DNA from: Eledone cirrhosa | Lineage: Eukaryota | Length of the DNA stretch: 64,000 nucleotides | Reading direction: 5' to 3' | Assembly: GCA_964016885.1 (NCBI GenBank) | Contig: OZ024742.1 | Coordinates: 140,182,001 to 140,246,000, forward strand | Shown: positions 1 to 59,707 of the stretch, one piece after another | Layout of the letters: every line of letters starts with the position of its first letter | Position numbering within the stretch: position 1 is the stretch's first letter | Translations under genes and position numbers: made by a program | Notes under the pieces: model-generated | Seen by the model: the letters and a program-made list of their open reading frames with translations, nothing else | Databases searched by the model: none | What the model was told of the DNA's origin: nothing

Positions 1-39
1 ATATATATAATTTTTTCTAATATTGGGATATGTAGATTT

Positions 40-412: not shown

Positions 413-424
413 AACTCTTCTGTA

Positions 425-740: not shown

Positions 741-3109
741 ACACATTTAAAATTTTCTGTCTTTGTTTACATATCCCAAAGTAATAAATAATGCATTTCA
801 TATTTTATGTCAGAATGAAAACTCCCAAAATGAAACAAGAATAGTACCGTCATTAAACTGAATTCTTTCTCAACTATGAAAAGAAAACTGGAGCCCATCT
901 TGTGTTTTTCTATTTAACATATTGGAAATTTGTTTATGTTAATATTGTTGCAAATTTAGATAACATACAAAACAGTTTTGAACAGCTGGTAGCCTTGGTG
1001 AAGCTTTAAAGAAAACAGTCGCTATTAATAATAAATAATATATTGGCTCTATACACAGTATTTGAGTCCTTTATTCAGGGCTTGTTTAGTGTGTTTATTA
1101 CATAAATCCATAAAACAAACATTTATACAACATACAAAACAGCACAATATGAACACATAATATTCATATTATGAGAGAATATTATTAAAAAAAGTGTCAA
1201 TCAGCATTTTTTATCTATTCACAATGAAAATGTTATTATAATCAAATAGAATTAAAAAGTAGTTAAAATTAAGAAAAGCAGCTATTGCCAACAAATACAT
1301 TACCCTAAAGAGAAGAGAAGAACTTAAAAACAAGAAATAACTGTTTTATTAATATTTTTTAATACTTCAGGCAATATTTATTTGGAAACTATTATATTAT
1401 GTTTTCATATTTCAATTATACCAATGAATGTATTGAATAAACAATAATAATAAATACAGTAATTTTAGGCAATGTTTTCACTTTTTTGTTGTTTATCAAC
1501 AAAGAATATTTCAAAAATTAATCATGTAGTTGTTAAAGTTGTTTTAATTAAAAGAATGTCAAGAAATATAGTGAAGATACAGAATATCTTTCAGATATTG
1601 ATTTCTTCAAACATATTACAAAATTATCATCATCACCACCACCATTTTACATATTTTTTCCTCCTGCTGGTATGAGTTGGATGGGTCATTCATTACTAAC
1701 AAACTCATTACTTTATCAGAGCCATTGTCCTCATAGATAGGTTGGCAAATCACATCTTGCCTGAATATGTACCTTTTTTGGCATTGTTTTATGGCTGGAT
1801 ATCCTTCCTAACACTAACCACCTTACAGAGTGCATTTTATCATGTCACCAGCACTAGAGACAGAAATTACTATGTCTTTGATGTGATGTGACTGAAAATT
1901 ACGGAAGAAATTAGATATGATTCTGACTCTGAATTTTGTCTTTTAGAAGAACTTTTTTGTCTACGAAAAGTTATTTGGAAAGAATATCAATGAAATATTT
2001 GATGTTAAAGACTTTTGTCCAATCTTCTTCCTTCTCAATCTATTTTAGCAAGAAATAAATCACATCATATTCATTTCCAGTTTTCACCTTACCTTCCACC
2101 ACTTACCAAGATGTAAACCACATCTTGTTCCTTTTTGAAGGAAAAGAACCTGTCATCTTCTATCTATAGTCCACCACCACAGTCATCGCTATGCCCTATC
2201 TCCCAACTTCACACTGAAAAGTGGCATCTGCGCATCAATAGTATCCATTCTTTCTTACCTAGATTTCAACAACAAAGACAATAACTTTAATTCAGTTGCT
2301 GTCTGCATTCCTCTAAATTCATCTCCTATGGCTACTGTTCTCCAAACACTTCCCACCATATATTGTCTTACATTGAAAACATCTATCTGGGGGTCTTTTT
2401 GTTGACTGCAATGCAAATAACTTTTCTTTTTTTTTTTTTCTTTTTTTTTGCTCTTGTAGTTCTCTCAGCCTGACATTACTGGTCTAGAGGCTAAATCATC
2501 TGTTATTCTGAACTGTTTGTACCAGTTAGCAGGTCCATGCAAAGCTCAGACTAGGCCTTAGCCAGATATAAAAAGTAAAACCTCAAAGTTTGCATTAGGC
2601 TCAGACCAGATGTGAAATGTAAAATTGCTTATTAATTATTTTAGTAATCAGTGTTAAATATATATGATTTATGTTTGGATTACATAATATATTCACAATT
2701 AATAAAACAATAAAAGAACCAGAACTTGACAAAAATTGTATATCCTTGCCTAGTGCTTCCTCCTGATACATTATTCCTAATTTATATACTGAACATCCTT
2801 GGATTTGTTTTTACCACTCAACACAAAACTGCATACAAAACTCAAGCTACATCAAACAATTAGTTTTAGAGAAAATATTATTTGTTGAGAAGGTTAGGAT
2901 TTTCCTGGCCTCAGCAATGAAAATCATGCAAACGATTAGGAATGTTTTATCACTAAATTCAAGGCTTTCAATGACCATAGATCAATATATTGATTTAATT
3001 ATCAATATCAAAATAGTGGACCTTAAGGCTATGCAAAATGTACTCTACTATGAAGTTATTGATTCTTTCTATTCTTTTTGTTATTTGCAAGTTAAGTAAA
3101 GTAGTCGAT

Positions 3110-3270
3110 GCTACTGGGTTGCTAATGTTAGTAGAGTCTATAGCTAATGTTAGTACAGTGTATTGCTATGGTTAGTACAGTGCCTTGCTGTGTAAGTAGA
3201 GTGCCTTGCCAAGGTTAATGAAGTGTTTTGCTAATGTTAGTGGAGTGTCTTGCTTAGGTTAGTACAATAT
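3110..3270. repeat. ~22-bp minisatellite, about 7 diverged units
   Basis: Recurring gctaatgttagtagagtgtctt-like unit. Confidence 0.7.
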
Positions 3271-3449
3271 TAGGAACCTAAGCTCACAAAATTTCAAATT
3301 TTCACTGTAAATCCTTTTTGAAGATTTGTTACCTGGAAAGGAAAAAAAAATACAAAAACGCTCATTCTTCGTCGCTAAACATTTTTTTAAATAAAAACAA
3401 TTTTTAAAAGGAAACATTATTGACAACAAATTATATTATTATTTTGTAA

Positions 3450-3872
3450 AGTAGTTGACATTAGGAAGGGCATCCAGGTGTAGAAATCATGCCAAAATGG
3501 AGTTGAGAATTCTTCAGTCATCTCAAGAACACATCTTTAATGCTGAATAGACCCCAAATACTCTGTAAAGTAGTTGGTTCTAGGAAGGGCATCAAGCCAT
3601 ACACACTATACCAAAAGAAGTGATAGAGGGGACTTTTCAGAAGTGTCAAGGATATGGCAACATCCTTAATGTTGGTGCCATGATAAGATGTACCCAGTAT
3701 ACTTTATAAGGTAGTTGGTGATAGGAAGGGCATCCAGCTTTAGAAACCCTGTCAAAACTGAACATTATGTGGTCTCCTGGCCTATCTGTGAAGACAGTAG
3801 TTCAGATTAAGTACTGACTCTACATATTCAACACATGCCTCCACGGAAAAGTGAATGTAAAATGATGATGAT
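3450..3872 (+). repeat. Degenerate tandem copies of the RTE 3'UTR / RTE-tail SINE module
   Basis: Three copies of gtaaagtagttgg..taggaagggcatc..g, ending in tccacggaaaag...gtaaaatgatgatg. The same module ends the young RTE at 54800-54965. Similar arrays at ~33005-33310, 45930-46270, 46910-47320 and 49980-50290 (all minus). Confidence 0.65.
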
Positions 3873-4325
3873 CTCTTTAAGTTTTTTCATTTATAACATA
3901 TATTTTATGAACGAAATAACTAATATTTGGTTTCTTCACCAAACTCTAGCGTGCATTATGTATGTGTACACGGTCATTATACCTGTTCCTGAGCCTTAAG
4001 CCCCTTTTCCAGTTTTCATTTTAATGTTTAATTTATTTTGTTGCCTTATTATTGTTTATTTTATTCTGCTGTCTGCCAAGAAGCATTCCATTTGTTCACC
4101 TACATACTGTTCTGTTCCTCTGTTTATTTTCTGTATGTCTACTGTGTTGTCTTACATAAATTCTTCCTGAGGATGGGGAATTTTTTTCCCCTATCTTCTG
4201 ATCTCCTGGGAAGGACCATTGATATTGTCAGCAAATCAGTTGAATTCACAGTGTTCATTCCAGTCTGATGGCTGATGAACAAAGATTTGTTCATGTCTTA
4301 GTTCATTTGTGCAGATATTTTAGCA

Positions 4326-7108: not shown

Positions 7109-8221
7109 GAAGGTCCTCTAGTGAGATCCACTGAACTTATCAACAGGCAGGAGAGAGAATGCAAAAGGATGTTTGATGCCTGAATTCTGGTTGGGAATTC
7201 TTTAAAATAAAAGAAAGTAAAGGCTAATAAGGGATTTGTTTATTGGGTGTAGTGGTTGGTGATAGGAAGAGCATCCAGCTGTAGAAACAATGTTAAAATG
7301 GGTCAGGAGGATGCTTGAGTGGTGTCAAGGGTGTGACAAGTTCTTAATCCCTCATAGCATTCAGGAGGTCAGAGGACAATATCCCATGTCCATACAAAGT
7401 TGGTTGGTGAAAGTTATTGTTGGACAGCCAATCCATGTATATTCATGTGTTGTCCATAGGGGTGTATTACTAATGAGTACTTGCTATGCTATACAAAGTA
7501 AATGTCTCCCTCAAATGACATCAGTGGTTACAAAAAAATTGTTGTACAGTCTTACAGTATATTAAAAATATATAGACAATTAATTATATATATGATTTTA
7601 ACTGGTGTTGACCAATGCCTTGTCAGTAATAAACCCAATTCTTAGATATGAATGGATGTGTTAAACCATGAGCAAGACATCAGGAACAGCAATGTCATAG
7701 ATAGTGTGAGTATGGAGATGTCTAATTTAGATGGATATTAAGTTAACTTTGTCTTTAATCCTTCCAGTGGGTTGATAAAATATAGTACCATTTAAGTACT
7801 GGGTTGATTTAATTCTTTCGTTATCATATTTCTAATTCTTTTGAAAATAATGAAGAATTTGGGAAGGGTTTAGTAATATAATTAACTTTCTCGTTATTAT
7901 CTGGGTGTTTGGAACATATTTTAACAAAGATGCTTACATAAAATCGTGATGGAAGGTTTTGAGATAAATAGTTTTGTATTGCAGAACTAGGAACCAAAGG
8001 CAATTTTGGCAGGTGGTTTGGAATCAAAAGGGTTAATTGATTTTCTCCTTCACCCCCAAATTGCTGGCCATGTATCTAAATTAGAAACAGTTATTATAGT
8101 GTTGTGTGTAGATGTTAACATCATCCATGTTGCATCTACAACATGATTTTGATTGTTGGTTGTTATAACTATTATATTTCTCCTAGGCTACTAATTCCCT
8201 GGGAAAAGAAATAATTGAATA

Positions 8222-8246
8222 TCTATATATATATATAAAACTAAGG

Positions 8247-8285
<39 letters not shown>

Positions 8286-8795
8286 TGTGAATCCCTAAAA
8301 CTCGAGAAGTACCCAACCGATTTTTTTCAAACTTTACATGTGTATTACTTATGTTTCAGGGCTCGCATTAGGTGAAAAACTGCGTTTTTTCAGCTTTTTA
8401 GGGGTCTTTTGAGGTGTTACGCCAGACCGATTTCCTTGAAATTGTAACTATGTATTAGTCAGTCTCTTCTTCATACCGTGAGCAAAGAAAATCCAACTTT
8501 TCAGCTTTTTAGGGCTTTTTTGAGGTGTTACATCTAGCCGATTTCCCCAAAATTTCAAGGCATATTATGCACATAAAAAAAGTTAATTTTCTTGATCCCC
8601 TAGGGCCTGCATTAGGTGAAAACCTGCATTTTTCCTGCTTCATCAAGGAAAATCTTGAAGATTATCCAGCCATCAGAGTATTCGGTTTATTTTCTTTACA
8701 TATTGTCCAGGCATGCAGTTTTTCCACGATTAGGTCTGTTGGCGGCCCGCGTTCCAAAATACCTTAACCCGTGCAACGCCGGGTACCACTGCTAG
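8222..8795 (+). mobile_element. Non-autonomous Helitron
   Basis: 5' TC(TATA..), internal (GT)n, subterminal hairpin cccgtgcaacgccggg, 3' CTAG; inserted between A and T with no TSD. Confidence 0.85.
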
Positions 8796-9429
8796 TTATA
8801 AATAAAACCACTGTAAAAATGGTGGCATTAGTGTTGAAAGTATTTAAGATTTGGAGTCAGGGATTGCTATGCTGGATATATGAACTGGGAAATTTGTATT
8901 TTGATAAACTCTATAATTTATGTTGATTACTGACATGTGGAAGTGATTAAAGATAAGAATAATATTTTAATAATTTATTTTTAGGATATAATTATATAAA
9001 TGTTCAGCATACATATACAAATGACATAAAGGATTAAATGTATGAGTAATTTTGTAGAAATAACTATTTACAGTGACAAATGTAGGGTGAGAACTCACAA
9101 ACTTGTGATTGGAAAGCAAATTTCTTAATACGAATGTTTTAGTTTCTGTAAATTTTAAAGAGTTACAGACACACACACATTTTCAAAATAGAGAGCACAC
9201 CGGAAAAACAGACAGTCCCATTGCCTCAGTCAACCTCTGGGAATCACTATGGTTTTGGTGCATTAGGGTTGATATCATTCATTCCAATACATTGGGACAT
9301 GACAAAACAGGTAGAGACAAAGTCAGAAGTTATACCTTTTGGCGAATTACACAAATAAGATGAAAATGTATTCCAAGTGCATCAACTAACAAAGAATGGA
9401 AAGAACGGTGCAGGAGGGCTTAATCAAAG

Positions 9430-11420
9430 GAGAAAAGAATATAGAAAGGAGAGAAATAAAGAAACAGGAAAGAATAATATAGACTCCAGTCCAAGTGTAG
9501 AAAAAGTGAGAAGGGAGAATAGAGGAAGACAGATTAGGTGGTGTGATGTCTATTGTATGACAATTTCAAAAAAGCCCACATAGCTAAGTTAGAATATGAA
9601 TTCAAAATAGGGGTGGAGGTGCACAGGACAAAGACAATGGAAAGAACAAAAGAAAAATGATCAGTGATCTCCTCAGTCAACCTCTAGAAATCTCTACATA
9701 GTGGTTTCCAAAGGTTGACTGAGGAGATGGGAATGTTCCTCATTCTGTTGTTTTTTCCATTGTCGTTGTCTTGTGCACTCCTCCCCCTATATTGAATTTA
9801 TATTCTAAAGACTTAGCCATGCTTTTTTTGAAACTATCATATAGATGTCACTCCACCCAGTCTGTCTTCCTCTATTCTCCCTTCTTACCTTTTCTACTTA
9901 TTTCCTGGTTGCAATAGAGTGGATGCCTGGGATCGTCTTGTTGTTTGTACCGGTCAGTTTTTGCGTTGACCTCTCGTCGTATGTGGGGTGGTGGAATGCC
10001 GGCAAGAGTGTATACGGCTGGAAGGAGAGTTGCTTTTAATGTTCCGGTGATCATCCGGCATGATTTGTTCAACTCTGAGTCAACTCTGTTTGCATGGCAC
10101 GACCTTGCCCATACTGGTGAACAATATTCTGTAGTGGAGTAGCAGAGTGCCAGTGCTGTTTGCCTCAGTGTTATGGGATCTGCACCCCAGCTGGTGTTGG
10201 TTAGTTTGCTGAGGAGATTATTTCTAGTTGCCAGTATACTTTTAAGTTTGTCTATGTGTTGTTTGAAGGAGAGCGTTCTATCAAGGGAAACTCCAAGGTA
10301 AACTGGATGAGAGTGTCTTTCCAGTTCATTGTTGCCCCATCTGATTTTTAGTTTCCTGTTTGCTTGGTGGTTGTTAAGATGGAAGGCACATACCTGCGTA
10401 CCATTTTTTTGTAGTATGCAGAGAGAGTTGTCAGGGCATTTGATAGTCTTTCCTCGATTGTGTCAAAGGAGCCTGACTGTGTTGCGATGCAGAGATCATC
10501 CGCATATATGAATCTATGAATATTGTGGAACTGCGGCTGGTCATTTGTGTAAATGTTAAACAGCATAGGAGCTAGCACAGAGTCCTGTAGGAGTCCGTTG
10601 TTCTGGACCCTCCACCTACTTCGCCTGCCATCCATCTCAACAAAGAATCGCTGATTGATGAACAGTGACTCAATTATGCGGACTGCAGTGGTGTTCCGAA
10701 CTGTTTGGGCCACCTTTAAAAGAAGTGCTCTGTGGTTCACAGTGTCATAGGCAGCTGTGAGGTCAACAAAGACTGCTCCAGTAATTTGTTTGGCCTCAAA
10801 TCCATCCTCGATGTATTGAGTCAGGTTCAGTACTTGACCGCAGCATGATTGGCCGGGTCGGAAGCCAGTCTGGTCTGGAGATAGTTGTTCTTCTACAGTA
10901 GGGGACAAGCGAGCCATGATCATGCATCCACTCTATGGCCACCAGGAAATAAGAAGACGATTAAAATCTCGAAAAAGCTTCTTAACCGTGGATAGCTTGG
11001 AGCATGCACAATCGGCGGCTTACAGGTTGGAAAAGTGGAGGGAGAGTGACCGCCGCCCACCCAATGCGGCCTTACCAAACCCAAATGAAAGCCTCCCCAA
11101 TGGAACATCTCTTAGCAGAAAGGACTGGGTAACCCTAAACAGGGCCAGAGCCAAAACAGGCAAAACTGGAGACAACCTCCACAAGTGGGGATTAGCCACC
11201 TGCGCTGAGTGCCCCTGCGGCGAGACCTCCCAGACCATAGCCCACATCCTCCGGGGGTACTCACTGGGACCCACATGCTCCGACCAAGACCTGATGGAAG
11301 CAAATGACGCTGCACTCAATGGATACAGTACTGGCGCGGCAAGATATGATGATGACCTTTTCTATACCTCAGTACCATTATTCTTTTAGTTTTTTCTATT
11401 TCTTTTCTTTCTATATTCTT
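9430..11420. repeat. Diverged long palindrome (arms ~260 bp, centre ~9698), right arm split by the Vingi-like insertion
   Basis: atctcctcagtcaacct / aggttgactgaggagat; agaagggagaatagaggaagacaga / tctgtcttcctctattctcccttct; aagaatatagaaag / ctttctatattctt resumes after 11364. Confidence 0.8.
9897..11354 (+). mobile_element. Vingi/Ingi-like LINE, 5'-truncated and 5'-inverted
   Basis: RT on minus 9897-10923 (QTGFRPG, FVDLTAAYDTV, YADD). C-terminus on plus 10924-11354 (WVTLNRAR...LHKWG..CAECPCG..QT..HI). (TGA)n tail; TSD ACCTTTTCTA at 9887-9896 and 11355-11364. Confidence 0.85.
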
Positions 11421-16491: not shown

Positions 16492-17114
16492 GTGCTTAGA
16501 GCCTTAAAATGACTTAATCTGACCCTTCTCCCAGATGATGCCTGTTTCACTACCATCAAATATACCACACCTTATTCCTTCTACACCCTAATTTTCCTTT
16601 TATGTTATTTTTTACGCTACTCACCTGCAATTTAAAATCATTGAGGTAACTAGGATTGCATATATGTATATATAAATTTACACATTTTTCACTATATAGA
16701 CATAAAAACATGCTAAATATATGTATTTCCTTATAAATAGGTGGTAATTATATATACAGATATAACTTTATAATATACTTCAGCTGCTTACTGCACAACT
16801 TAATATTTATCTTAATTAACTACCAACACAAGTGCTATATGCAAATTAGTACTTCCATATCAGGATACTACTATTATAAGCCCCCTCAGTTATGTATTTC
16901 ATTGTGGTTGTTTAGCTGATATATATACCATTTGATGAGGAACCCAACTAGGTTCAAGAACTGATTCAAGGTATTTATTATTTTTTCAATTTATAGGGAA
17001 ATAAATATTTGGTATGTTTTTATTTCTATATACTAAAAATGTATACATTTATTTACACATTTTTGCAGTCTTAGTTACTTTTATTCTGTTCTTCTTGTCA
17101 TATGACATATGCAC

Positions 17115-17600
17115 TATAGTTAGAGAGGCAGGTGAGGCAGACAAAGGCATCATTTGCAGCATTATGGATTGCCACCAGGCGGCTGGGAAAACATCTAAAG
17201 GGGCAATCCCGAACAACATGCAGCACTGTCTGGTCAGGGTGTCCGCAGTCATATGCAGGGCTGTCTTTCATTTTTCATTGATGGAGATGATGGGCTGCCC
17301 TGATTAAGGGGCACCCATTGCTTTCTGGGAAGATCAAAGCCAGTTGGTTTAGATGTGTGGTCCTGGATGAGGTTTTATTTAGCAAATTTGGATTCATTCC
17401 ATGATCTTCAGCACTCTTCCAAAGTTATTGCTTCGAAGGGCGTTCATTGATTCCCAGAATAGTTAGTGTGATTTCAAGCAAATGTTGGGAATGTTTTCCA
17501 GGTCTTCATGGTTGGGAAAGTTGGGCTTAGACTTGGTAAAAAGTGTGCTTTGCAGATCATCTGACGCCGCATGTGAGAAGGAGCTATATGAGAAAGGGTA
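17115..17600 (-). mobile_element. Vingi/Ingi-like LINE 3' fragment, old
   Basis: Manual translation of the minus strand gives GFDLPRKQWVPLN and YDCGHPDQTVLHVVRDCP, the same C-terminal motifs as 11120-11280. Confidence 0.7.
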
Positions 17601-17661
17601 GGCAGCCACTGAGTAAATAGACAGATATAACTTTATCTTATATATATATATATATATGTAT

Positions 17662-18378
17662 ATTCTTCTGGTTTTATAATTTCACAAAGTTTTACCAATA
17701 GAGAGAGAGTCGGTTTCTAACATAGACACAAGACTCTCTCATTGGAATTTACACATCAACAACTAGGTAGATATGTATGTATGCATGCATATGTAGATAT
17801 GGATGTTATTGTATGTGTGGATGTGGATGTTTTGAGTTGTATGTGTGCATGTGTATATGCTTTGTATCTGTACATGTGTACATGCAGTTATTAGATGCAA
17901 CATTTTTGGAATGTTTTACATATTTTTTGTTGGATTGTAATTGTAGTTTCCTAACTAATTGTGTTCTTTCTGTTCCTGTGAAGCCCAGCTTCTCAAGATT
18001 TGTATTGAGGCAGTTACTAACATACCCCAGTGCCCCAATAATCACAGGCATAAATCTGAAGGTGTAATCAGGGTGGAGTATCTGCAGATTTCTCATCAGT
18101 TCTGCATAAATACTCTCCTTTTCACTAATCTTTGATATTATATTGGCATCTGCTGGGCAGCTAATTTCCACTACTGTGCATGCTTTCTTCTCCCTGTCCC
18201 ATATCATAATATCTGGTATGTTATGCCTACATTTTATTGGGGTTCTTACTGGAACATTCCAGCAGTACTCTTTCATATTATGTACATGGATGTCTTCCAC
18301 ATTGTTGTAGCTTTTAATGTTTATTATCGGGGCTACCTTTTTTACGAACTGCATTGTACAGTGTTTTGGCCACTACAT
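17662..18378 (-). mobile_element. R4/Dong-like RLE LINE, family A, short 3' copy (A1)
   Basis: KCRHNIPDIMIWD...VVEISCP...PVIIGALG; 3'UTR hairpin gagagagtc/gactctctc; near-identical to the 3' part of 26233-29322. Confidence 0.88.
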
Positions 18379-18404
18379 TGTATGTATGTGTGTGTGTGTG
18401 TGTG

Positions 18405-21400
18405 CTATCTCTTTCTCTTAATTTCGAGTATATTTTTTTGACCGGCCACCTTCCTGGTGGCAAGGTTGTAAATGAAAAGAAATTGTCATCCCTTGAATCG
18501 CAAGAATGTTTTGCAAATTTTGAAGGTGCCAGCTATCGCAGCCATTTGCAGACTATGAATTAGAGAGCTGTGCTTTTTGTCTGCAAATCCAAGTTCAGTC
18601 ATACTTTGGTCCAAGCGGGTTGGTATATAACCCGTAGCTCCAATAATGATGGGTATGAAGCTAAAGGTGTATCTTGGATACTGGATTTGTAAACTCCTCA
18701 TCAATGGTCCGTAGATGTCCTGACAACGTTTACATCAAGTGGGCAGCTGATCTCTACAACAGAACACGTTTTCAATGTGTGGTCCCAAACAACAATATCA
18801 GGCTGGTTGTGCTTTAATTTGGTGGCAGTTTTTATTTTCAGGTTCCACCAGTATTCCTTAGTGCCATCTGTCTCAATATATTCTTCCTTGTTTGTTGTTA
18901 ATTTTGTTTTCCGAAGTGCGTTCCAGATGGTTCTAGCTATCCCATCATGTCTCATGGGGAGGTAGTAGCGAGATGACATTCTTTCGCAGCTGGCAACAAT
19001 GTGGCTTACATCCTCGATCTTTGTTTTACATAGCCTACATTTATTGTCAGCTGGCCCTCCTCTTTTGTGCAGCAGATATTTGGTAGGGAGTTCTTGTTCC
19101 TGTATTGCATAGAGATATCCCTCAAGGTGTGATGTCATAAACTTGTCGGAACTCCATGCCAGGCTTTTTGAGTGGTTTATCCCCTCTATGGTCTGTGTTT
19201 TACGTCTCAAGTATCCATGCACAACTTTTTCTGTAAATTGGTCAATTTTTTTATCTTGTTTGAACATTGAATAGGATCTTCCGATTTCTCTGGGTCTCGT
19301 ATGTTGTTAATATTGATTTTAGATGCTGGCCACCTTCCTTGCGTGAGAAGTATAGCCTATCCACATCACCATTGATGTTAAAGTTCCCAGTAACACTGAG
19401 AAGTTTGCGAGTTCTAACATCCATCTCACTTAGTTCTTGCATTGACCAGTTCAGCAGGCCAAATGTTGGCGTTAGAATTGGCACAGCATAAGTATTGTGG
19501 GCAATGTATTTGTTGTACGCTGACACTTCTGATGACAATATTTTCTTCTGAGGTATTCAGTTCTGGTTCTCTCCTTATTTATGGGTCCATCATATCTGAC
19601 ATTCTCATCCTGGCCAAGATATCTGTAGTTGTCACCTGACTGTAGAGGTTGTATTGTCAGGCCGTTCATCTCTAGATTTCTAGAGGAGGGCACAGCTCTT
19701 CCACGTTTTACTGCCAAATAGGCACACTTGGACTCACCAAATTTCATTTTGATGTCGGTTGAAAATTGTGTAATGAGGTCCAATTGTTTCTTGATGTCAT
19801 TGATATTTGGCCCATACAACTTCAGGTCATCAACAAAGAAAAGATGGGAGATACTTCTGGACCCACTTCTTTGTCCACCTTGTTTCCTGAGTAGGTAAGA
19901 TAGTGGATTCAGTGAGAGAACGAAGAGTAGCATTGACAAGCTATCACCCTGAAAGATGCCCTTCTGGTAATGTATCTTATCAGTCTTAATTTGCTCCTTC
20001 TCACCTCTAAGGATCAAATTGGTGTACCAGTTCTTGGTCAGGCGTTCAACAGCAGCTACCAATGGTTGTGGGACTTTGGCTAACTGTAAAGCCTTAATAA
20101 TCCACCCATGAGGTATACTATCAAATGCATTTTGATAGTCCAGCCACACCACAGTCATGTTTCTGCGATTCTTTGTTGTTTTTTCCTGAATCATTTTATT
20201 AGTTAGTAGGTGATCTATGCAACCCCACACCTCCCTCTTTCCACCAGCTTGCTCAGGTGTTATGATGTTGTTGGTAGCACAGTGATCCTGTAAGAACTGG
20301 TTAAGGCACTCAGTATATAATTTATACATGATGTTTTGGCAGGCTATTGGGCGGTAATTTTTAGCAAGGGTGGTTTGGCTATTTTGGGGAATGAGGAGAG
20401 TAGTGGCAGTTGATAACCATCTGGGCAGTTCTTGTATGCCTTTAATGGTTTCTGTAAACAGCCGTATGAGATCTTGCTGATAGAAAGTGAAATTCTTCAA
20501 CCAGTATCCTGTAATGAGGTCTGGGCCTGGCGATTTCCTATTCAACATTTTCTGTAGAGCTGTTTCCAGTATTGACTCATCTATGTCATATTGTTTAGTC
20601 TGGACATGTTGGCAGTAGTCCTGTTCCAGTTCTTTTAGCCAATTAGTTTGTCTGTTGAATCCGTCATCCGTTTCCCATACAAATCTCCAGTAGCTCTCAA
20701 CCTGTTCTTTTGAAGGGGTGTCATTTACAGGGATTGAGCTTTTGCCACCGAAGCTGCGATAAACTGATTTAGGATCTCTGGCAAACAATCTATTTAACAC
20801 TTGTCGTTTATGTGCTGTTGAAGCTGTGAGTTGTTGTTTCAACTGGTGTAATTTGGAGTTCAAAGTTTTAAATTTTGTATCTCCAAATCGTCTCTCTAAC
20901 TTTTTTTTAGGTCTTCCTGGTGTCGTGTGAAGTTGCTTTCTATGTTGCATTTCATAACGACTGCGATGTGTGAGATACTTCGTCTCAGGGACAAAATTTT
21001 GGTTTTTAAATTTCACATCCACGCTGGTTCAGGCTTTCTGTTTGTATCTTGATTGCGTGGTTTTAGATGTGTGTTATATGATAGCAATGTGACAGCTGAA
21101 ACATATAACAAAATATTAAGCGTTTCAAATGTCGTTTCTACACCTTTAGATCGTATAGCCTTCAGATAATTGCCAGCTATTTCGTTCACCGCTTCCAATT
21201 CCAATTTAGTGGGTTCTTTACTGATTCAGCAATGAAATCATATCCGCTCTCTTGCTCTGGAACCATGACTCCAGCCTGACTAGGAGTAGGAAGCTGTCAT
21301 TCCCTGATGTTATCTCTAGGGATACGGGAATCAGTAGACAGGACCTGGGGGCAGCGATGGGGGACAGGGAATTCTGGGACATGAGAGTGAGATCCATCGT

Positions 21401-22620
21401 CTCAACAGTAGTCGACGAATGATGATGACTGATTCTGGTGTTGTATGGTCTGTCACTCACATTAAGGCTGTGTATCTCTTGAAACATATCGTTCCATATC
21501 ACTTGTAAGGTGTCCACAAGTTTTTGGTGTTCTGTTTGTTCAGTAGAGTCATGAATTTCAGCCTCGTTGTTGATGTGGTGACAATTACTACTAGAGTTAG
21601 CTGACCTTTCTCGCTGTTCTTCAGTGGAAGTGGGATGGATTTCAGCAAAATTGTTGGTGAGCTGTTCACTGTTAGATTTAGCTGGCCAGTCTCTTTGTCT
21701 GCCAGTGGAGGTGGGGTGGTTGTCTACAAGGGCTATATTTGTAGTATCACTCAATTCCGTTAGATGTATCAATTTACATCTAATGATACGTTTTGCCTGT
21801 TCATTTAAATGCTTTGGAGAAAAGTCTAATTCTGGGTGTTTGGAGTTCCATAAAGTTTTTAGCCTTTGCATAAAACCGAACTTTTGGGATTCAGATCGTT
21901 TCTATGCATCATATAATTCTTTGTTAAGCTCGTAACTCCACTGTATACACAACGGTTGTAGTTGCGATTTGGTCGAAGGAGACTTGTACTTTTTGCCATG
22001 ATGAGTTCGTCTATTCACTAATATTTCGTATTTATTTTTCAAAATAGTCGATGATCTTCTTTAAAATTTTCGACAAAGTTCTGTCGGAATCAAATTTAAA
22101 GTTATTCACAGCTTGGGTAATATTTCTTTTCAGTTAGTTTTTAATTCTACAACGTTGTTCTTGAATCGTTTGAATCGAGAACAAAAAGAACCGTTACTTA
22201 GTATATTTCTTTATGAATGTAATATAATATAACAACGCTGTATTTATATGTTAAAGTTTATGTATCATTCATATAAATAGGTGTTCTACAACTTATTCAC
22301 AGTTCAAACACTTATGTTTTTGTTTCTGAATCGAAAACGTTACTTGTATGATGATGAACGTTTCTTTATAAATGTAATATAACAACGTTGCATTTATATG
22401 TTAAAGTGTATGTATCGTTCATATATCATAAGTGTATGTATCGTTCATATAAATAGGTGTTTTACAACACACTTACAGTTCAAACACTTATGTAGAATTA
22501 TTGTATGTAATCTTACCGCGTAATGTAGCTCAACTTTTTCCAATATATGATATGTTGCCTTCATGTAGGCCGTAATTACACACGTCCGATTATCGGACAC
22601 TAACCACAACGGTCGCCATT
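18405..22620 (-). mobile_element. R4/Dong-like RLE LINE, family B, near full-length and disrupted (B1)
   Basis: N-terminal W..E.N..L...GFMQRL..LW...P motif (~21780-21950); RT (NYRPIAC, LDYQNAFDS, GIFQGDSLS, FVDD) in ORF 19472..21022; CCHC finger CRLC..EDVSHIVASC; RHD and PD..EISCP RLE. The 5' boundary (putative UTR 21980-22620, with an internal ~150-bp direct repeat) is uncertain. Confidence 0.88.
21228..21427 (+). mobile_element. RTE 3' stub nested in B1
   Basis: Encodes ..LLLWN...KLSFPDVISRDTG...AMGDREFW; (TGA)n tail; TSD ACTGATTC at 21220-21227 and 21428-21435. Confidence 0.85.
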
Positions 22621-22636
22621 AGATATATATATGAGG

Positions 22637-22826
22637 GCCGTGGATTGGCAGTATCGGTAGAGAGTCGGACACCATGCTTTGAAGCATAGAGTTACGTCCC
22701 TTTATGATCTGAGTTCAAATCCCGCCGAGGTTAACTTTGCCTTTCATCCTTACGGGGTCGATAAAATAAAGTACTAGTAATGTACTGGGTAATTGCTGGC
22801 CTTGTGCCTAAAATAGAAACAATTAT
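22637..22826 (+). mobile_element. Young short tRNA-derived SINE (~190 bp)
   Basis: gtggattggcagtatcggtagag...gagttcaaatcccgcc (B box)...gcctttcatccttacggggtcgataaaataaagta...agaaacaattat. Confidence 0.9.
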
Positions 22827-23157
22827 ATGTATGTATGTATTCGATCGCAGCGCTGTTAGTTGCTATCGTGTGTGTGTGTATAGATATGTTTATGTGTGTG
22901 CGTGTATGTGTATATATATATGTATATGTATATCATTATTGTTGTTGTCGTTATTATTATTGTTATTATTATTATTATTATTGTTATTTATGTATGTGTG
23001 TGTGTATATATGTGTGTGTGTGTGTGTATGTACATATATATATATATATGTATACATATATATATATATTTCTTTTTTTTTTTCTCCTCGTGCAATGGCC
23101 ATACTCGATAACGAGGGGGCAGCCATCATCATGTATGTATGTATGTATGTATGCATG
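22826..23157. repeat. Compound microsatellite (TATG, TG, TA, TTA) with embedded hairpin stubs
   Basis: Direct reading; GC-rich stubs at 22842-22868 and 23082-23127. Confidence 0.9.
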
Positions 23158-23570
23158 TCCGGGAGAGATGACCCCTTAGCCTTTGTCAAGGCAGAATTCT
23201 AGGAGAAGGAAAACTCTGATATAACACCTGCAACCCTGATGGTATCCGATGATGTTGACTTGTTCTTCTTTTTGGTAAATATCATCTTGGTTAAGAGAGT
23301 GGGACTGGCTTTGTGCAGTGCCTTTGCTCACTATAAAAGCTTCACGGCACAGGCATTGCTTTATATCTGGAGATCTCTTTGCACTTGTCGTCACATGGTA
23401 CCATGGGCCCAGCACTATGTGTCAATAATTGTTACAAGTGTAGTGTTTGTACCAGAGTTTTCATGTCGCAGGCTGGACTAAAAAGTCACACTCGTTCAGC
23501 GCATCGGTAGGGGTTCTCCTACATGGATATAAGGTAGTGGCCGTACTCGAAAACGAGTTGGCAGCCACCA
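23158..23570 (+). mobile_element. Non-coding non-autonomous retroelement N, 5'-truncated copy (N1)
   Basis: Near-identical to 24552-24962; ends in a hairpin followed by ATGT-type repeats. Confidence 0.8.
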
Positions 23571-23775
23571 TGTGTGTATATATATATATATGTATGTATG
23601 TATATGTACATACGTACGTGCATACATGTATGTGTGTATGTATGTATGTATGTATGTATGTGTATGTATGTATGTATGTGTATGTGCATATATGTATGTG
23701 TGTGTGTATATACATATATGTGTATGTATGTATGTATGTATATGTGTATATGTATGTATGTATATATATATATAT

Positions 23776-23850
23776 GTCAGGTCACCAGTTGGTGCTACTG
23801 GTAACATGTATTCCAGTACAACCTGTCCCATGTTGACTTGTTCTTCTTTT

Positions 23851-23893
<43 letters not shown>

Positions 23894-24312
23894 ATGTATC
23901 TATGTATGTATGTGTATATGTATCTATGTATGTATGTATGTATGTGTATATGTATGTATGTATGTAGGTGTGTATATGTATGTATGTATATATGTGTATA
24001 TATATGTATGTTCTTTTTAGTAATTATCATCTTGGTTAAGAGAGTGGGACTGGCTTTGTGCAGTGCCTTTGCTCACTATAAAAGCTTCATGGCACAGGCA
24101 TTGCTTTATATCTGGAGATCTCTCTGCCCTTGTCGTCAAATGGTACCTTGGGCCCAGCAGTAAATGTCAATAATTGTCAAGTGTAGTGTTTGTACCAGAG
24201 TTTTCAAGTCGCTGGCTGGACTAAAAAGTCACACTCGTTCAGCACATCGGAAGGGGTTCTCCTACATGGATATAAAGTAGTGGCCGTACTCGAAAACAAG
24301 TTGGCAGCCACC
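23776..24312 (+). mobile_element. Element N, internally deleted copy (N2) interrupted by microsatellite
   Basis: Same 5' start gtcaggtcaccagttgg as N3; jumps at atg to atgttgacttgttcttc; TA/TATG run at 23851-24010; same 3' hairpin. Confidence 0.8.
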
Positions 24313-24353
24313 ATATATGTATGTATATATGTATGTATATATGTATATATTAT

Positions 24354-24962
24354 GTCAGGTCACCAGTTGGTGCTACTGGTAACATGTATCCCAGTACAAC
24401 CTGTCTCATGGTCGGGTCGTTGGCGACTAAACTGGCAACCCCATCAAGGTTTCTTGTTGAGGAGGGTGACTTTGGACATCCTGCGGGACTAAAAACAAAA
24501 CCTGTCAAAGGGCAAAGGAGCTCTTAAGAGTCAATGGCCATCCAAAAATCACCGGGAGAGATGACCCCTTAGCCTTTGTCAAGGCAGAATTCTAGGAGAA
24601 AGAAAACTCTAATATAACACCTGCAACCCTGATGGTATCCAATGATGTTGACTTGTTCTTCTTTTTGATAAATATCATCTTGGTTAAGAGAGTGGGACTG
24701 GCTTTGTGCAGTGCCTTTGCTCACTATAAAAGCTTCACGGCACAGGCATTGCTTTATATCTGGAGATCTCTCTGCACTTGTCGTCACATGGTACCTTGGG
24801 CCCAGCAGTAAGTGTCAATAATTGTCGCAAGTGTAGTGTTTGTACCAGAGTTTTCAAGTCGCTGGCTGGACTAAAAAGTCACACTCGTTTAGCACATCGG
24901 TAGGGGTTCTCCTACATGGATATAAATTAGTGGCCGTACTCGAAAACGAGTTGGCAGCCACC
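24354..24962 (+). mobile_element. Element N, apparently full-length copy (N3, ~610 bp)
   Basis: No credible ORF; structured 5' end; RTE-5'UTR-like motif ctaggagaa(g/a)gaaaactct; 3' hairpin gtggc..actcgaaaacgagt..gccac; pure (ATGT)n tail at 24963-25018. Confidence 0.8.
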
Positions 24963-25017
24963 ATGTATGTATGTATGTATGTATGTATGTATGTATGTAT
25001 GTATGTATGTATGTATG

Positions 25018-26180
25018 TCTTTCTTTCTCTTAATTTCATGTATATTTTTTTTGACCAGCCACCTTCCTGGTGGCAAGGTTGTAAATGAAAAGAAATTGTC
25101 ATCCCTTGAATCGCAAGAATGTTTTGCAAATTTTGAAGGTGCCAGCTATCGCAGCCATTTGTAGACTATGAATTAGGGAGCTGCGCTTTTTGTCCACAAA
25201 TCCAAGTTCAGTCATACTTTGGTCCAAGCGGGTTGGTATATAACCCGTAGCTCCAATAATGATGGGTATGAAGCTAAAGGTGTATCTTGGATACTGGATT
25301 TGTAAACTCCTCATCAATGGTCCGTAGATGTCCTCCTTCTCCTGTATTTTTCTGACAACGTTTACATCAAGTGGGCAGCTGATCTCCACAACAGAACACG
25401 TTTTCAATGTGTGGTCCCAAACAACAACATCAGGCCGGTTGTGCTTTAATTTGGTGGCAGTTTTTATTTTCAGGTTCCACCAGTATTCCTTAGTGCCATC
25501 TGTCTCAATATATTCTTCCTCATTTGTTGTTAATTTTGTTTTCCGAAGTGCATTCCAGATGGTTCTAGCTATCCCATCGTGTCTCATGGGGAGGTAGTAG
25601 TGAGATGACATTCTTTCGCAGTTGGCCACAATGTGGCTTACATCCTCGATCTTTGTTTTACATAGCCTACATTTATTGTTTGCTGCTGGCCCTCCCCTTT
25701 TGTGCAGCAGATATTTGGTAGGGAGTTCTTGTTCCTGTATTGCATAGAGATATCCCTCAAGGTGTGATGTCAATTATTTGTCGGAACTCCATGCCAGGCT
25801 TTTTGAGTGGTTTATCCCCTCTATGGTCTGTGTTTTACGTCTCAAGTATCCATGCACAACTTTTTCTGTAAATTGGTCAATTTTTTCATCTTGTTTGAAC
25901 ATTGAATAGGATATTCCGATTTCTCTGGGTGAGAGATTTATATCAGGCTTTATTCCATATCTCTCCTCCAGATCAGTCGCTATTCTAATGATATTTTTTC
26001 TTTCATGCTCATAAACCTGGGCAAGATGGTTGCCAACCTTTTTCCTCTGTTAAAGGTGTTGCTTCAGTGTTACTTTCCCGGTCTCATATGTTGTTAATAT
26101 GGATTTTAGACCCCGGCCACCTTCCTTGCGTGAGAAGTATAGCCTATCCACATCACCATTGATGTTAAAGTTCCCAGTAA
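25018..26180 (-). mobile_element. R4/Dong-like LINE family B, 5'-truncated copy (B2)
   Basis: ORF 25099..25773 carries an intact CCHC, RHD and PD..EISCP RLE; near-identical to B1; 3'UTR hairpin gccacc/ggtggc. Confidence 0.9.
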
Positions 26181-26232
26181 TGTATGTATGGATGGATGTA
26201 TGGATGTATGGATGTATGGATGGATGGATGGA

Positions 26233-29200
26233 TGTTCTTTCTTTCTTTCTTTCTTTCTTCCTTCTGATTTTATAATTTCAGAAAGTTTTACCAATAGAGA
26301 GAGAGTCGGTTTCTAACATAGACACAAGACTCTCTCATTGGAATTTACACAACATCAACTAGGTAGATATGTATGGATGTTATTGTATGTGTGGATGTGG
26401 ATGTTTTGAGTTGTATGTGTGCATGTGTATATGCTTTGTATCTGTACATGTGTATATGCAGTTATTAGATGCAAAATTTTTGGAATGTTTTACATATTTT
26501 TACTGTTCCATTAATGGATTGTACTTGTAGTTTCCTAACTAGTTGTGTTCTTTCTGTTCCTGTGAAGCCTAGCTTCTCAAGATTTGTATTGAGGCAGTTA
26601 CTAACATACCCCAGTGCCCCAATAATCACAGGCATAAATCTGAAGGTGTAATCAGGGTGGAGTATCTGCAGATTTCTCATCAGTTCTGCATAAATATTCT
26701 CTTTTTCACTAATCTTTGATATTATATTGGCATCTGCTGGGCAGCTAATTTCCACTACTGTGCATGTTTTCTTCTCCCTGTCCCATATCATAATATCTGC
26801 TCTGTTATGCCTGCATTTTATTGGGGTTCTTACTGGAACATTCCAGCAGTACTCTTTCATATTATGTACATGGATGTCTTCCACATTGTTGTAGCTTTTA
26901 ATGTGTTTATTATCGGGGCTATCTTTTTTACGAACTGCATTGTACAGTGTTTTGGCCACTACATCATGCCTCATAGGTAGATAGTACCGCGATGACATCT
27001 TTGGACAGCTGCTGATGACATGGGTGATATCCTCGATGTTAGTTCTGCAGAGTCTGCACTTGTTATCACATCTAGGTGTTTTGCCTGCATCCCTATCTCT
27101 TTTGTGAATCAGGTATTTCGTGCTAATCTTCTGATCTTGGATTGCAAAAGCATATCCTTCAAAGTGGGAGCCAATATAGCGGTTGTTGGTCCAAGATAGA
27201 CTACTTTCCTTATCTATATTACTCTCACTCTTGAGCTTCCTGGCAACATATCCATGCATGATTTTTTGCTGATAAGCATGCAGTTTTTCATCCATGGATT
27301 CACTGCGATATTGCTGAGCGACATCCCTGGGTGTGAGTTTTTGATTATCACACAGGGAATATCTCTCAAGGAGTTTCTTCCCAACTCTCATGATCCTATC
27401 TGTTTCATGCAGATAGACTTGCTCGAGAAGCAGGCTCCTGATGTTAGGCCTCTGCCTCCCTGCTTACGTTTCAAGTAAAGGCGGTCTATGTCACTGTTGA
27501 TGTGGAAGTTTCCGGTGTTGTTCAGTATTTTTCGAGTTCCAACATCAACTGCTCGGATTTCGTCTATCGTCCAATTGAGTATTCCAAACGTTGGTGTTAG
27601 GACAGGCACAGCAAACACATTGTGAGCCACTGTTTTGTTTTGCGCAGAGAGTTACGATGACCAGATCTTTCTTAATCGGGTGTCGTATTCCCTGGTTACG
27701 CGTTCTTTATTACAGATACCATTTTAGGATATGTTCTCATCTATCCCCAGGTATCTGTAACAGTCCTCATCAGATATCAGTGAAACAGTTAGACCATTGA
27801 TGACAATGTTGCTAGATTGGGTTGTTGTTTTCCCCCGCTTTACAGTCATGTATGAGCATTTATCTTTGCCAAACTCCATTCCTATATCCTTTGAGAACGT
27901 TGTAACCAGGTCAAGATTTTTCTTCATCCCATCCATGTTCTTGGCATAGAGTTTCAGATCGTCCACAAAGAAGTTATGGGTTAGGTTCGTATTTCTGTCC
28001 TCCTGTGAGCCAATGATGTATCCCTCACATTTCTTGAGCAGAAAGGACAAGGGGTTTAATGACAAGATGAACAATATCACGGAGAGACTGTCTCCCTGAA
28101 ATATACCCCTGCAATATTTTATTTTATCAGTGAAAATAGAGTCCTCCCTCTCTGTCTTTAACCTTAGGATAGTAGCCCAAGAAGAAGACAGCTTCTCTAT
28201 GGCTCTGACAATAATGTCTGGGACTTTAGCAAGTTGGAGGGCCTCTATCATCCAAGAGTGGGGAACAGAATCGAAAGCTTTCTTGTAGTCAGTCCAGCCA
28301 GACTGTAGTCATATTCCTCCTAAGTTGTCTCACCTCCGACATCGTAGTTTTGTTGATTAGGAGTTGTTCAGCACATCCCCAAACCCTTTTCTTTCCAGCT
28401 GTTTGTTCATCTGTGATGATGTTATTATTTTCACAGTGATCTTAGAAGAATAGGTTCAGGCAGGCTGTATACATCTTATACATCAGGTTCTGGCATGCAA
28501 TGGGTCGGTAGTTTTTTGCCAAGTCGGTGTCTTTGTTCTTGGGGACCAGTAACGTTTGTGCTAATGTCAACCATTCTGGTATAAGTGTATCTCCCTTAAG
28601 AACTTGTTGGTAGAGGTCAGTAAGATACCTCCGATAGAATATTAGTTTTTTGTACCAGTAGCCGACAATCATGTCTCTTCCTGGTGTTTTCTTATCTTGG
28701 AGTTTTCCTATCACAGTCTCAAGGGTATCCTCACTTATTTTGTATGTTTTTGTTGTAGTGTAGGAGCAATAGTTCTTTCGGATTTCTCTTAGCCACACTG
28801 CATCTTGGTTGAAATTCTTCTTTTCACCCCATATTTTTCTCCAAAAGGAATCTATGTCTTTCTAGGATGGGGCCTCAGTGACACTTATTATTTTGCCCTT
28901 CATATCTCTATAGACTGATGTTTGGTCTCGTCTGAATCTTTTATTAAGCATTTCTCTCTCATCTACCTTCTTCAGGTATCGGCGTTTTTCGCTAACAGCT
29001 CTCAATTCTTGTTTGAGGGTGATCAGTTTATATTGGAGAGTTCTGGTTCTACTGTTACCAAACATCGTCTCTATTTTATTTTTCACTCTTTGTTGGTGAG
29101 GAGTGAGGTTTTTTTGTGTTTGTTTGCATGTAAGGAGCATTGTCACATGTCCTATGTTTTTTCGTAGGTCAGCACTCTTTTTTTCTATTTTAGTTATATA

Positions 29201-29322
29201 TGATGGTATTTTTGGTGGTGTTTTGTTCTTATTAATATCTCTGCTATCACCAAGATAATGCTTCACTGTCATTGCTAAGGCATATAAACAGGCGTTGATT
29301 TGCCAAAATGTTGGGGTTTTTA
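26233..29322 (-). mobile_element. R4/Dong-like LINE family A, 5'-truncated and frameshifted (A2)
   Basis: RT pieces (NYRPIAC; GIFQGDSLS; FFVDD) and C-terminal CRLC..HVISSC, RHD, EISCP in ORFs 26465..27391, 27724..28251 and 28442..28798. Confidence 0.9.
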
Positions 29323-29426
29323 TACATATGCATGCATGCATGCATGCATGTATGTATGTATGTATGTATGTATGTATGTATGTATGCATGCATGCATGCA
29401 TGCATGCATGCATGCATGTATGTATG
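29323..29426. repeat. (CATG)n-(TATG)n-(CATG)n compound microsatellite
   Basis: Direct reading. Confidence 0.95.
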
Positions 29427-59675: not shown

Positions 59676-59707
59676 TCTACATACACACACACACGCATAT
59701 ATATATA

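What the first reader, a model, noticed from the sequence alone, without database searches (positions are those of the whole stretch)
17640..29426. 12-kb microsatellite landing pad stacked with co-oriented R4/Dong-type retrotransposons
Seen: the order is A1-B1-[SINE, stubs, N1, N2, N3]-B2-A2. All four RLE elements (two distinct families) are on the minus strand, and every junction between them is TATG/TG/TA/TGGA/CATG repeat, not unique DNA. Known: R4-clade elements such as Dong use a restriction-like endonuclease, and some target microsatellites. Inference: both families target (TACA/TATG)n strand-specifically, and the (ATGT)n tails laid down by element N create fresh targets (the N3 tail abuts the B2 3' end at ~25018). 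That would be a self-amplifying multi-family nest grown from one microsatellite.
Basis: partly seen in the sequence, partly recalled or inferred. Interest (0 to 1): 0.75.

Follow-up and report, generated by a model that had tools for sequence, protein, structure and literature searches.

The report
Jumping genes stacked in CATA repeats
Two families of jumping genes sit almost only inside CATA repeats and always face the same way, while an unrelated family sits in the same repeats facing the other way; each likely cuts its own strand, so stacks like this 12-kb one are common across this likely octopus genome.

Summary
The stack is real, but its reading needs correcting. A1, B1, B2 and A2 are minus-strand R4/Dong-type retrotransposons from two families (45% aa identity). 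Elsewhere in the genome their 3' ends abut (CATA)n in 117 of 133 copies and their 5' junctions in 115 of 131, never the TATG strand. SINE controls: 2 of 83 and 0 of 82. Adjacent A/B copies are co-oriented in 36 of 36 pairs. The middle block is RTE-derived and plus-strand: N is a non-autonomous RTE derivative, and 22837-23128 is one truncated RTE whose own 3' UTR supplies the TG/TA/TTA 'junctions'. N faces A/B in 69 of 69 pairs, but its tail is not preferred (30 tail-side, 39 head-side), so it is a co-tenant, not the target-maker. The A-B...B-A order is not nesting, and origin from one microsatellite is not shown. One of 79 arbitrary 10-kb stretches holds a similar stack. A and B fall in a branch with CTTA-flanked relatives, apart from TAA-flanked Dong. 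Microsatellite-targeting Dong, ACAY-targeting Waldo and opposite-strand TRAS/SART are in print; a CATA target for Dong was not found. This scan already reported the same pattern on other DNA of this genome.

The parts
17089..17615 (.). Left flank: old (about 78% identity) dispersed repeat, truncated; its continuation is not found on the right flank
17639..17664 (.). (TA)n tract with one TATG unit, abutting the A1 3' end
17665..18378 (-). A1: 5'-truncated R4/Dong-type family A copy (positions 3381-4113 of a 4.1-kb element); end of the endonuclease region plus 3' UTR
18379..18408 (.). TATG/TG tract between the A1 5' end and the B1 3' end
18409..22619 (-). B1: family B copy, full-length in extent (1-4220) but broken by stops, frameshifts, a deletion of about 145 bp and an insertion
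21228..21427 (+). 200-bp insertion in the B1 ORF with an (ATG)n end and an 8-bp target-site duplication; the only true element-in-element insertion here; family not identified
   Evidence: (joint 21219>21428)
22636..22826 (+). Very abundant SINE (76 hits in 0.4 Mb); not CATA-associated elsewhere; used as control
22837..23128 (+). 5'-truncated autonomous RTE-clade LINE: last codons, stop, TG/TA/TTA-rich 3' UTR and 3' terminus; flanked by TATG on both sides
23159..23569 (+). N1: 5'-truncated copy (201-611) of the 611-bp non-autonomous RTE derivative N
23570..23773 (.). TATG/TA tract
23774..23861 (+). N stub (1-59 joined to 294-324)
23862..24010 (.). TA/TATG tract; the N sequence on its two sides overlaps by about 17 bp
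24011..24312 (+). N2 (308-611); shares 4 rare variants with N3
24352..24962 (+). N3: full-length N
24963..25021 (.). Perfect (ATGT)14 tract between the N3 3' end and the B2 3' end (tail to tail)
25022..26180 (-). B2: 5'-truncated family B copy (3063-4219)
26181..26260 (.). TATG/TGGA tract, then (TTCT)n, between the B2 5' end and the A2 3' end
26261..29323 (-). A2: 5'-truncated family A copy (964-4113) with RT and endonuclease, broken by stops, frameshifts and a deletion of about 60 bp
29324..29426 (.). TATG/CATG tract at the A2 5' junction

Best explanation
The 12 kb is a pile of retrotransposon copies separated by CATA/TATG repeats, and it likely grew mainly by repeated sequence-specific insertion into those repeats. 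Shown: families A and B always read along the CATA strand and have the repeat on both sides; N and the RTE read along the TATG strand. Inferred: the A/B protein (N-terminal three-helix Myb-like domain, RT, CCHC knuckle, restriction-like endonuclease) binds (CATA)n, nicks the TATG strand and primes reverse transcription there, which fixes orientation. The RTE protein, which likely also moves N, would nick the other strand, possibly helped by pairing of its (ATGT)n tail. Each insertion splits a tract and leaves repeat on both sides, so occupied sites keep offering targets to all families and stacks lengthen. Occasional local tandem duplication adds copies. N is a co-tenant of the repeat, not its maker.
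For: Counts are on de-duplicated copies outside the window. A 3' ends: CATA 61 of 70 (5 other alternating repeats, 4 other). B 3' ends: 56 of 63. Full-length 5' ends: A 22 of 22, B 22 of 23. 5'-truncation junctions, which fall at arbitrary points in the element so the repeat cannot be element sequence: A 35 of 46, B 36 of 40. TATG strand: 0 in every A/B class. N: 3' TATG 65 of 78, 5' TATG 51 of 70, CATA 0. Controls: SINE 2 of 83 (3') and 0 of 82 (5'); a young CR1-like LINE 1 of 17; background 1.3%. Sample not chosen by similarity (79 stretches, 0.79 Mb): A 3' ends 4 of 5, B 5 of 5. Neighbour pairs: A/B with A/B co-oriented 36 of 36, A/B with N opposite 69 of 69. Tract lengths are symmetric 5' vs 3' (A 69/80, B 104/65, N 57/74 bp, p 0.14-0.73), as expected for insertion into existing tracts. 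No A/B copy up to 3 kb was seen interrupting another element's body in the held loci. The fold matches R2 proteins best (E 1e-34). Other Dong-type copies in the same genome sit in (AAT)n instead, so repeat choice follows lineage.
Against: No enzyme assay and no empty-site allele was seen, so nicking is inferred. 15 of 86 truncated A/B 5' junctions are not CATA. Most loci were the best matches to window copies, so they lean young; nearby loci and tandem arrays are not fully independent. N2/N3 share 4 rare variants, and A1/A2 share 2 variants absent from 42 other copies, within 18 bp of each other. L430 holds two B copies with the same truncation point and C28 holds a four-unit A-B-N array. So part of the stacking is likely duplication or conversion, not new insertion. 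One tract inside an N copy (23862-24010, about 17-bp overlap) could be a repeat laid down de novo; it was the only such case found. The tract-length measure was loose (any alternating dinucleotide). The 5' ends of autonomous RTE copies were not mapped.
Confidence: 0.8

Rival explanations
1. One reading: N (RTE) tails manufacture the TATG tracts, and A/B then target those tails.
For: N and the RTE end directly in (ATGT)n (12 of 15 RTE 3' ends). RTE elements are reported to add microsatellites at insertion (PMC2887409, passages). One tract inside an N copy has a short overlap on both sides. About 10 of 28 tract clusters in 0.4 Mb touch an A, N or RTE-family end (my reading).
Against: A/B lie at N's head as often as at its tail (39 vs 30). 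N's 5' junctions are TATG too (51 of 70). 3' tracts are not longer than 5' tracts. Most tract clusters have no element next to them.
Confidence: 0.1
2. Targeting comes from base pairing between a (CATA)n tail on the A/B RNA and breaks in the repeat, not from a sequence-reading endonuclease.
For: A/B 3' ends run into the repeat in a fixed phase (A: 31 of 52, B: 33 of 48 in one or two 8-mers). Where the 5' junction is not CATA, the 3' side often still is.
Against: Most RLE-encoding clades are target-specific, and Dong relatives are described as TAA-specific with an N-terminal Myb-like domain (PMC4640811, PMC7998251 passages). A fixed phase is also expected from a defined nick. The two mechanisms can act together.
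Confidence: 0.15
3. The stack arose mostly by local duplication, gene conversion or misassembly through the microsatellites.
For: Shared rare variants in N2/N3 and A1/A2. Tandem arrays exist elsewhere (L048-L051, L430). No read or contig could be shown to bridge the junctions.
Against: Window copies differ by 3-6% from each other, while B1, B2, A2, N1 and N3 have 98-99% matches elsewhere in the genome. All 5' truncation points differ. A1 carries 20 private changes against 2 for A2, and B1/B2 share no rare variant. The same junction grammar holds on many chromosomes.
Confidence: 0.1
4. Passive accumulation: elements insert anywhere and persist near microsatellites, as proposed for Drosophila Waldo-A/B.
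For: Published precedent (PMC3812793 passage).
Against: Junctions abut the repeat directly. The strand bias is complete (no TATG-strand A/B junction). SINE and CR1-like controls show no such association.
Confidence: 0.02

Closest known systems
Dong (R4 clade): Bombyx Dong, DongAg, snail DongBg, ostracod Dong1/2 (PMC3812793, PMC7998251, passages)
   Same: Single ORF with RT and C-terminal restriction-like endonuclease, no N-terminal zinc fingers seen, helical Myb-like N-terminal domain, microsatellite on both flanks, fixed orientation.
   Different: Those target (TAA)n. A and B sit in (CATA)n and fall in a separate, well-supported branch (SH-aLRT 99-100) that also holds CTTA-flanked elements. 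TAA-flanked Dong copies of the same genome fall outside it.
Waldo (WaldoAg1/2, WaldoFs1): ACAY microsatellite-specific (PMC3812793 passage)
   Same: ACAY includes ACAT, a rotation of CATA, so this repeat is already a known retrotransposon target.
   Different: Waldo uses an AP-type endonuclease (R1 clade per the cited title); A/B use a restriction-like endonuclease.
TRAS and SART in Bombyx telomeric repeats (PMC10088271 passage)
   Same: Two families share one repeat in opposite orientation and form arrays.
   Different: Both are R1-clade and telomeric. Here the partners belong to unrelated clades (R4 and RTE) and the repeat is dispersed through the chromosomes.
Bipartite non-autonomous RTE elements (PMC5786205 passages); lepidopteran RTEs that generate microsatellites (PMC2887409 passages); octopus RTE-2_OV (PMC9115989 passages)
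   Same: N joins RTE 5' UTR-like and 3'-end sequence. The RTE has a 3' UTR made largely of microsatellite, as described for RTE-2_OV.
   Different: RTE insertion is described as not sequence-specific, whereas N has TATG or related repeat at both junctions. Identity with RTE-2_OV was not tested.
Octopus 'Dong-R4' annotation class (PMC13282606: first third of the text plus passages; PMC9115989 passages)
   Same: Dong-R4 is an abundant, recently active LINE class in octopus (5 families, 1,129 recent insertions in O. vulgaris).
   Different: Neither text gives a target sequence (0 hits for 'target' in PMC13282606, 0 for 'target site' in PMC9115989). Supplements and the repeat libraries were not seen.

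Membership tests
R4/Dong clade | Single ORF with non-LTR RT | tested here: met
   RVT_1 above cut-off; natural genomic copies with open frames of 1118 aa (A) and 1052 aa (B), each covering most but not all of the ORF
R4/Dong clade | C-terminal CCHC knuckle and restriction-like endonuclease, no AP endonuclease | tested here: met
   C-x2-C..H..C and PD..E motifs read directly; best fold matches are R2 proteins, E 1e-34, TM about 0.56; no Exo_endo_phos hit
R4/Dong clade | N-terminal SANT/Myb-like domain without zinc fingers | tested here: inconclusive
   Confident three-helix domain. Top Foldseek hit is a Myb-like domain but E 0.32. VIA Z up to 6.3 with many Myb/SANT/trihelix rows, below the tool's trust level. 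Pfam gives nothing relevant.
R4/Dong clade | RT phylogeny with R4/Dong references | tested here: inconclusive
   A/B group with insect and TAA-flanked homologues apart from RTE, CR1-like and Tx1-like outgroups (support 96; quick tree only). No sequence named Dong, R4, R2, NeSL or Hero was in the tree. The Bombyx and Pediculus rows are unnamed RT proteins (33% identity).
R4/Dong clade | Target-specific insertion in a repeated sequence | tested here: met
   CATA at both junctions, one strand only
Dong in the narrow sense | (TAA)n target | tested here: not met
   A/B flanks are CATA; (AAT)n-flanked relatives form a different branch
R4/Dong clade | Endonuclease nicks the target strand (biochemistry) | not testable with these tools
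   needs an enzyme assay
R4/Dong clade | Target-site duplication | tested here: inconclusive
   Flanks are the same repeat. Imperfect tracts read by eye showed no clear duplication for A/B, and 5' junction phase is spread over all four phases.
Bipartite non-autonomous RTE (element N) | 5' and 3' parts of an autonomous RTE without the ORF | tested here: met
   N 195-401 about 68% to the RTE 5' UTR, N 580-609 87% to its 3' end, N 490-536 77% to the ORF end. The partner has an AP endonuclease (PF03372). The clade label RTE rests on recalled motifs and architecture, not on a named reference. The 3' match is short, and a closer partner may exist.
Nested insertion (A split by B split by N) | Outer pieces are the two halves of one element | tested here: not met
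   A1 and A2 both end at 4113; B1 and B2 both end at 4220

The most novel reading that the evidence does not exclude
A and B belong to an old, undescribed branch of the R4/Dong clade that moved from the three-letter TAA target to four-letter C-(A/T)-T-A repeats: CATA here, and CTTA in two metagenome contigs (L328 on both flanks, L330 on the 3' flank). In this genome that branch shares its repeat, on the opposite strand, with an RTE lineage that has itself become repeat-specific. TAA-, CATA- and CTTA-targeting relatives would form a natural series for mapping how these proteins read a short repeat.
Probability: 0.5. Interest if true: 0.6.

Novelty: new variant of a known kind. Interest (0 to 1): 0.4.

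Why it matters
R2-type proteins are being developed as site-specific gene-insertion tools (own knowledge), and what sets their target is still being worked out. Close relatives with TAA, CATA and CTTA targets, two of them in one genome, would make that question testable by comparing their N-terminal and endonuclease domains. For octopus genomics, A, B and N together cover about 2.7% of the sampled bases, and a few strand rules explain their stacking. The locus itself is not special: it is one of many such stacks, and every concept involved (microsatellite targeting, opposite-strand sharing, arrays) has a published precedent.

Tried and rejected
Rfam scan of 17-30.5 kb: only microsatellite artefacts, all below gathering scores. 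No tRNA genes. Fold of the N 5' end showed no unusual structure (z -0.79); a ribozyme was considered from memory and not pursued. Joining of left and right flanks: not found. Short-read contigs and RAD reads cannot bridge the repeat junctions, so neither the order nor an empty allele could be checked; no RNA holder was listed. The first search for N's partner by endonuclease family returned Tx1-like and CR1-like elements, not RTE; the CR1-like copies were reused as a control. The partner was then found through an ORF scan of held loci. Search for CATA tracts born inside element bodies gave only the window's own case. The 200-bp insertion in B1 had no match in held loci. The careful ML tree did not finish; both trees are quick trees without bootstrap, and two metagenome rows were dropped for short coverage. 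Rows dropped before the counts: six loci overlapping the window and three tandem repeats of L048. The original Dong paper was not held; Kojima and Fujiwara 2004 and Repbase were not available, so a prior record of a CATA-targeting Dong there is not excluded. Literature searches that found no CATA-targeting R4/Dong.
Full report
Setting. The window is G000:C3:140182001-140246000 in a 3.0-Gb genome. The closest named homologue of family B is from the octopod Argonauta hians, so the host is likely an octopus; this is an inference.

Anatomy. Self-comparison and annotation with natural full-length copies give, left to right: A1 (minus, 3381-4113 of 4.1 kb), B1 (minus, 1-4220), a SINE (plus), a plus-strand block, B2 (minus, 3063-4219) and A2 (minus, 964-4113). 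Both families carry RVT_1 and a C-terminal CCHC knuckle with PD..E endonuclease motifs. They are 45% identical in protein. A predicted model of B (pLDDT 83) matches R2 retrotransposon structures best (E 1e-34). All four window copies are broken. A1 and A2 both contain the 3' end, as do B1 and B2, so the mirror order A-B...B-A is not nesting. The one real insertion into an element body is a 200-bp piece in B1 with an 8-bp duplication.

The middle block. N is a 611-bp element with a fixed right end and variable left truncation, so it reads on the plus strand. An ORF scan of held loci found an AP-endonuclease LINE whose upstream region resembles N. Twenty copies of it show that it ends in the window's 'stub' 23083-23128 (95-100%) followed by (ATGT)n. 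N shares 195-401 with its 5' UTR (about 68%) and 580-609 with its 3' end (87%). Window 22837-23128 aligns with the end of its ORF and its microsatellite-rich 3' UTR. So the TG/TA/TTA repeats there are element sequence, and N is a bipartite non-autonomous derivative of the kind described in PMC5786205 (passages). The label RTE rests on recalled motifs and architecture.

Targeting test. I collected the best 30 genomic matches for each of five queries (A 3', B 3', N, B 5', A 5'), 40 extended copies and 40 arbitrary 10-kb stretches. I removed six window loci and three tandem repeats, de-duplicated, and classified 25 nt at each junction. A 3': CATA 61 of 70. B 3': 56 of 63. Full-length 5': 22 of 22 and 22 of 23. 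Truncated 5': 35 of 46 and 36 of 40. None was on the TATG strand. N is the mirror image: 3' TATG 65 of 78, 5' TATG 51 of 70, none CATA. SINE: 2 of 83 and 0 of 82. A young CR1-like LINE had CATA after its tail in 1 of 17 copies with a readable flank. In 79 stretches at round-number positions (0.79 Mb) background is 1.3%, and 4 of 5 A and 5 of 5 B 3' ends abut CATA. The truncated junctions carry most weight, because the repeat there cannot be part of the element.

Orientation and the role of N. Among neighbours within 400 bp, A/B pairs are co-oriented in 36 of 36 and A/B-N pairs are opposite in 69 of 69; N-N pairs are tandem in 10 of 13. A few pairs may be near-duplicate loci. A/B lie at N's head in 39 and at its tail in 30 (p=0.34). 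Tract lengths do not differ between 5' and 3' sides for A, B or N (loose measure). Most of 28 tract clusters in 0.4 Mb have no such element beside them. This favours insertion of all families into existing tracts over manufacture of targets by N. One tract inside an N copy with a 17-bp overlap could be tail-made, but it was the only case.

How special is the locus? A, B and N cover 0.94%, 0.71% and 1.0% of the 0.79 Mb sampled. That suggests on the order of 10^4 copies each of A and B (rough: five ends each, clustered). One of the 79 stretches (L432) holds A, three B pieces, six N pieces and an RTE under the same strand rules, and another (L430) holds three tandem B copies. Eight of 29 B anchors and 14 of 26 A anchors have another such element within 400 bp downstream. 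Stacks are therefore common. Growth from one microsatellite is plausible but not shown: the left-flank repeat is cut at 17615 and does not resume on the right. Window copies mostly have closer matches elsewhere (98-99%) than to each other (94-97%). However, N2/N3 share four rare variants and A1/A2 share two unseen in 42 other copies, so local duplication or conversion likely contributed. Reads could not bridge the junctions.

Relatives. The same genome has Dong-type copies at 34-37% identity (over RT) flanked by (AAT)n. A metagenome scan kept 80 of 407 relatives; I read flanks for 37 of them. The closest (L328, 43%) has (CTTA)n on both sides, L330 ends in (CTTA)n, and many distant ones end in (AAT)n. 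In quick ML trees the CATA and CTTA elements form one branch (support 99-100) apart from the 13 AAT-flanked rows. A and B are not sisters within it, and most rows in that branch have unknown flanks. The N-terminal region of A folds into three helices with weak Myb/SANT-type matches, consistent with but not proving the domain reported for R4/Dong (PMC7998251 passages).

Mechanism. Shown: strand-specific placement in the repeat, 5' truncation, and repeat on both sides. Inferred from R2-type chemistry (established knowledge): the A/B protein nicks the TATG strand and primes reverse transcription; the RTE protein nicks the CATA strand and also mobilises N. Each insertion leaves two tracts, so occupied sites stay open. 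Whether endonuclease specificity or tail pairing does the choosing is untested.

Comparison with print. Dong targets (TAA)n; Waldo targets ACAY, which includes this repeat; Mino, Kibi, Koshi and Togen target other microsatellites (PMC3812793 and PMC4640811 passages). TRAS and SART share telomeric repeats in opposite orientation (PMC10088271 passages). Octopus Dong-R4 is annotated as abundant and recently active, without target data in the main texts (PMC13282606 part 1 of 3 and passages; PMC9115989 passages). PMC12988792 has no mention of Dong or microsatellites (find). RTEs are described as not sequence-specific (PMC2887409 passages). Eight searches found no CATA-targeting R4/Dong. Repbase, supplements and Kojima and Fujiwara 2004 were not seen and could hold such a record. 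Earlier notes of this scan report the same Dong/RTE pattern at other loci of this genome. My targeting counts and the N result were made before reading them; the RTE-partner and CTTA leads came from them and were then tested here.

Verdict. Real and well supported as strand-specific CATA targeting by two R4/Dong-type families, with an RTE lineage on the other strand. It is a new variant of a known kind. The locus is a typical example rather than a rarity, and the 'N builds the target' and 'nest' parts are not supported. Interest 0.4.

Noticed in passing
L209:1-3800, L213:4000-7900, L046:2039-3292, L052:23-360: Canonical (AAT)n-flanked Dong-type copies in the same genome, also stacked in tandem (L209, L213); 34-37% aa identity to A/B over RT.
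   Followed up: partly
L328 (whole contig), L330 3' end: Metagenome contigs holding relatives of A/B flanked by (CTTA)n; L328 is a full-length element with the repeat on both sides.
   Followed up: partly
L048-L051 (G000:C28:61.402-61.412 Mb): Tandem array of four near-identical A-B-N units, 2.2-2.7 kb apart: a retrotransposon stack amplified like a satellite.
   Followed up: no
window:21228-21427: 200-bp insertion in B1 with (ATG)n end and 8-bp duplication; no match in held loci.
   Followed up: partly
L068:2742-3280, L196:3765-4295: At least two further N-like families share N's 5' part and similar 3' ends and also sit in TATG tracts.
   Followed up: partly
window:34835-37669, 53687-54661, 59641-60558: CR1-like LINE pieces (PHD, endonuclease, RT); the genome holds many young copies with open frames of about 957 aa.
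   Followed up: partly
window:57806-59182: Tx1/L1-like LINE 3' region (zf-RVT), 89% to a 1150-aa frame in L207.
   Followed up: no
window:9872-10932 and 17089-17615: Older LINE fragments; relatives of the left-flank repeat continue into RT sequence 35-48% similar to the 9.9-10.9 kb element.
   Followed up: partly
window:22189-22493: Internal repeats of about 130-150 bp in the AT-rich 5' UTR of family B.
   Followed up: no
L200:1-942 and 8074-9999: Protocadherin-like open frames in an arbitrary stretch (by recalled motifs; not tested), in line with an octopus host.
   Followed up: no
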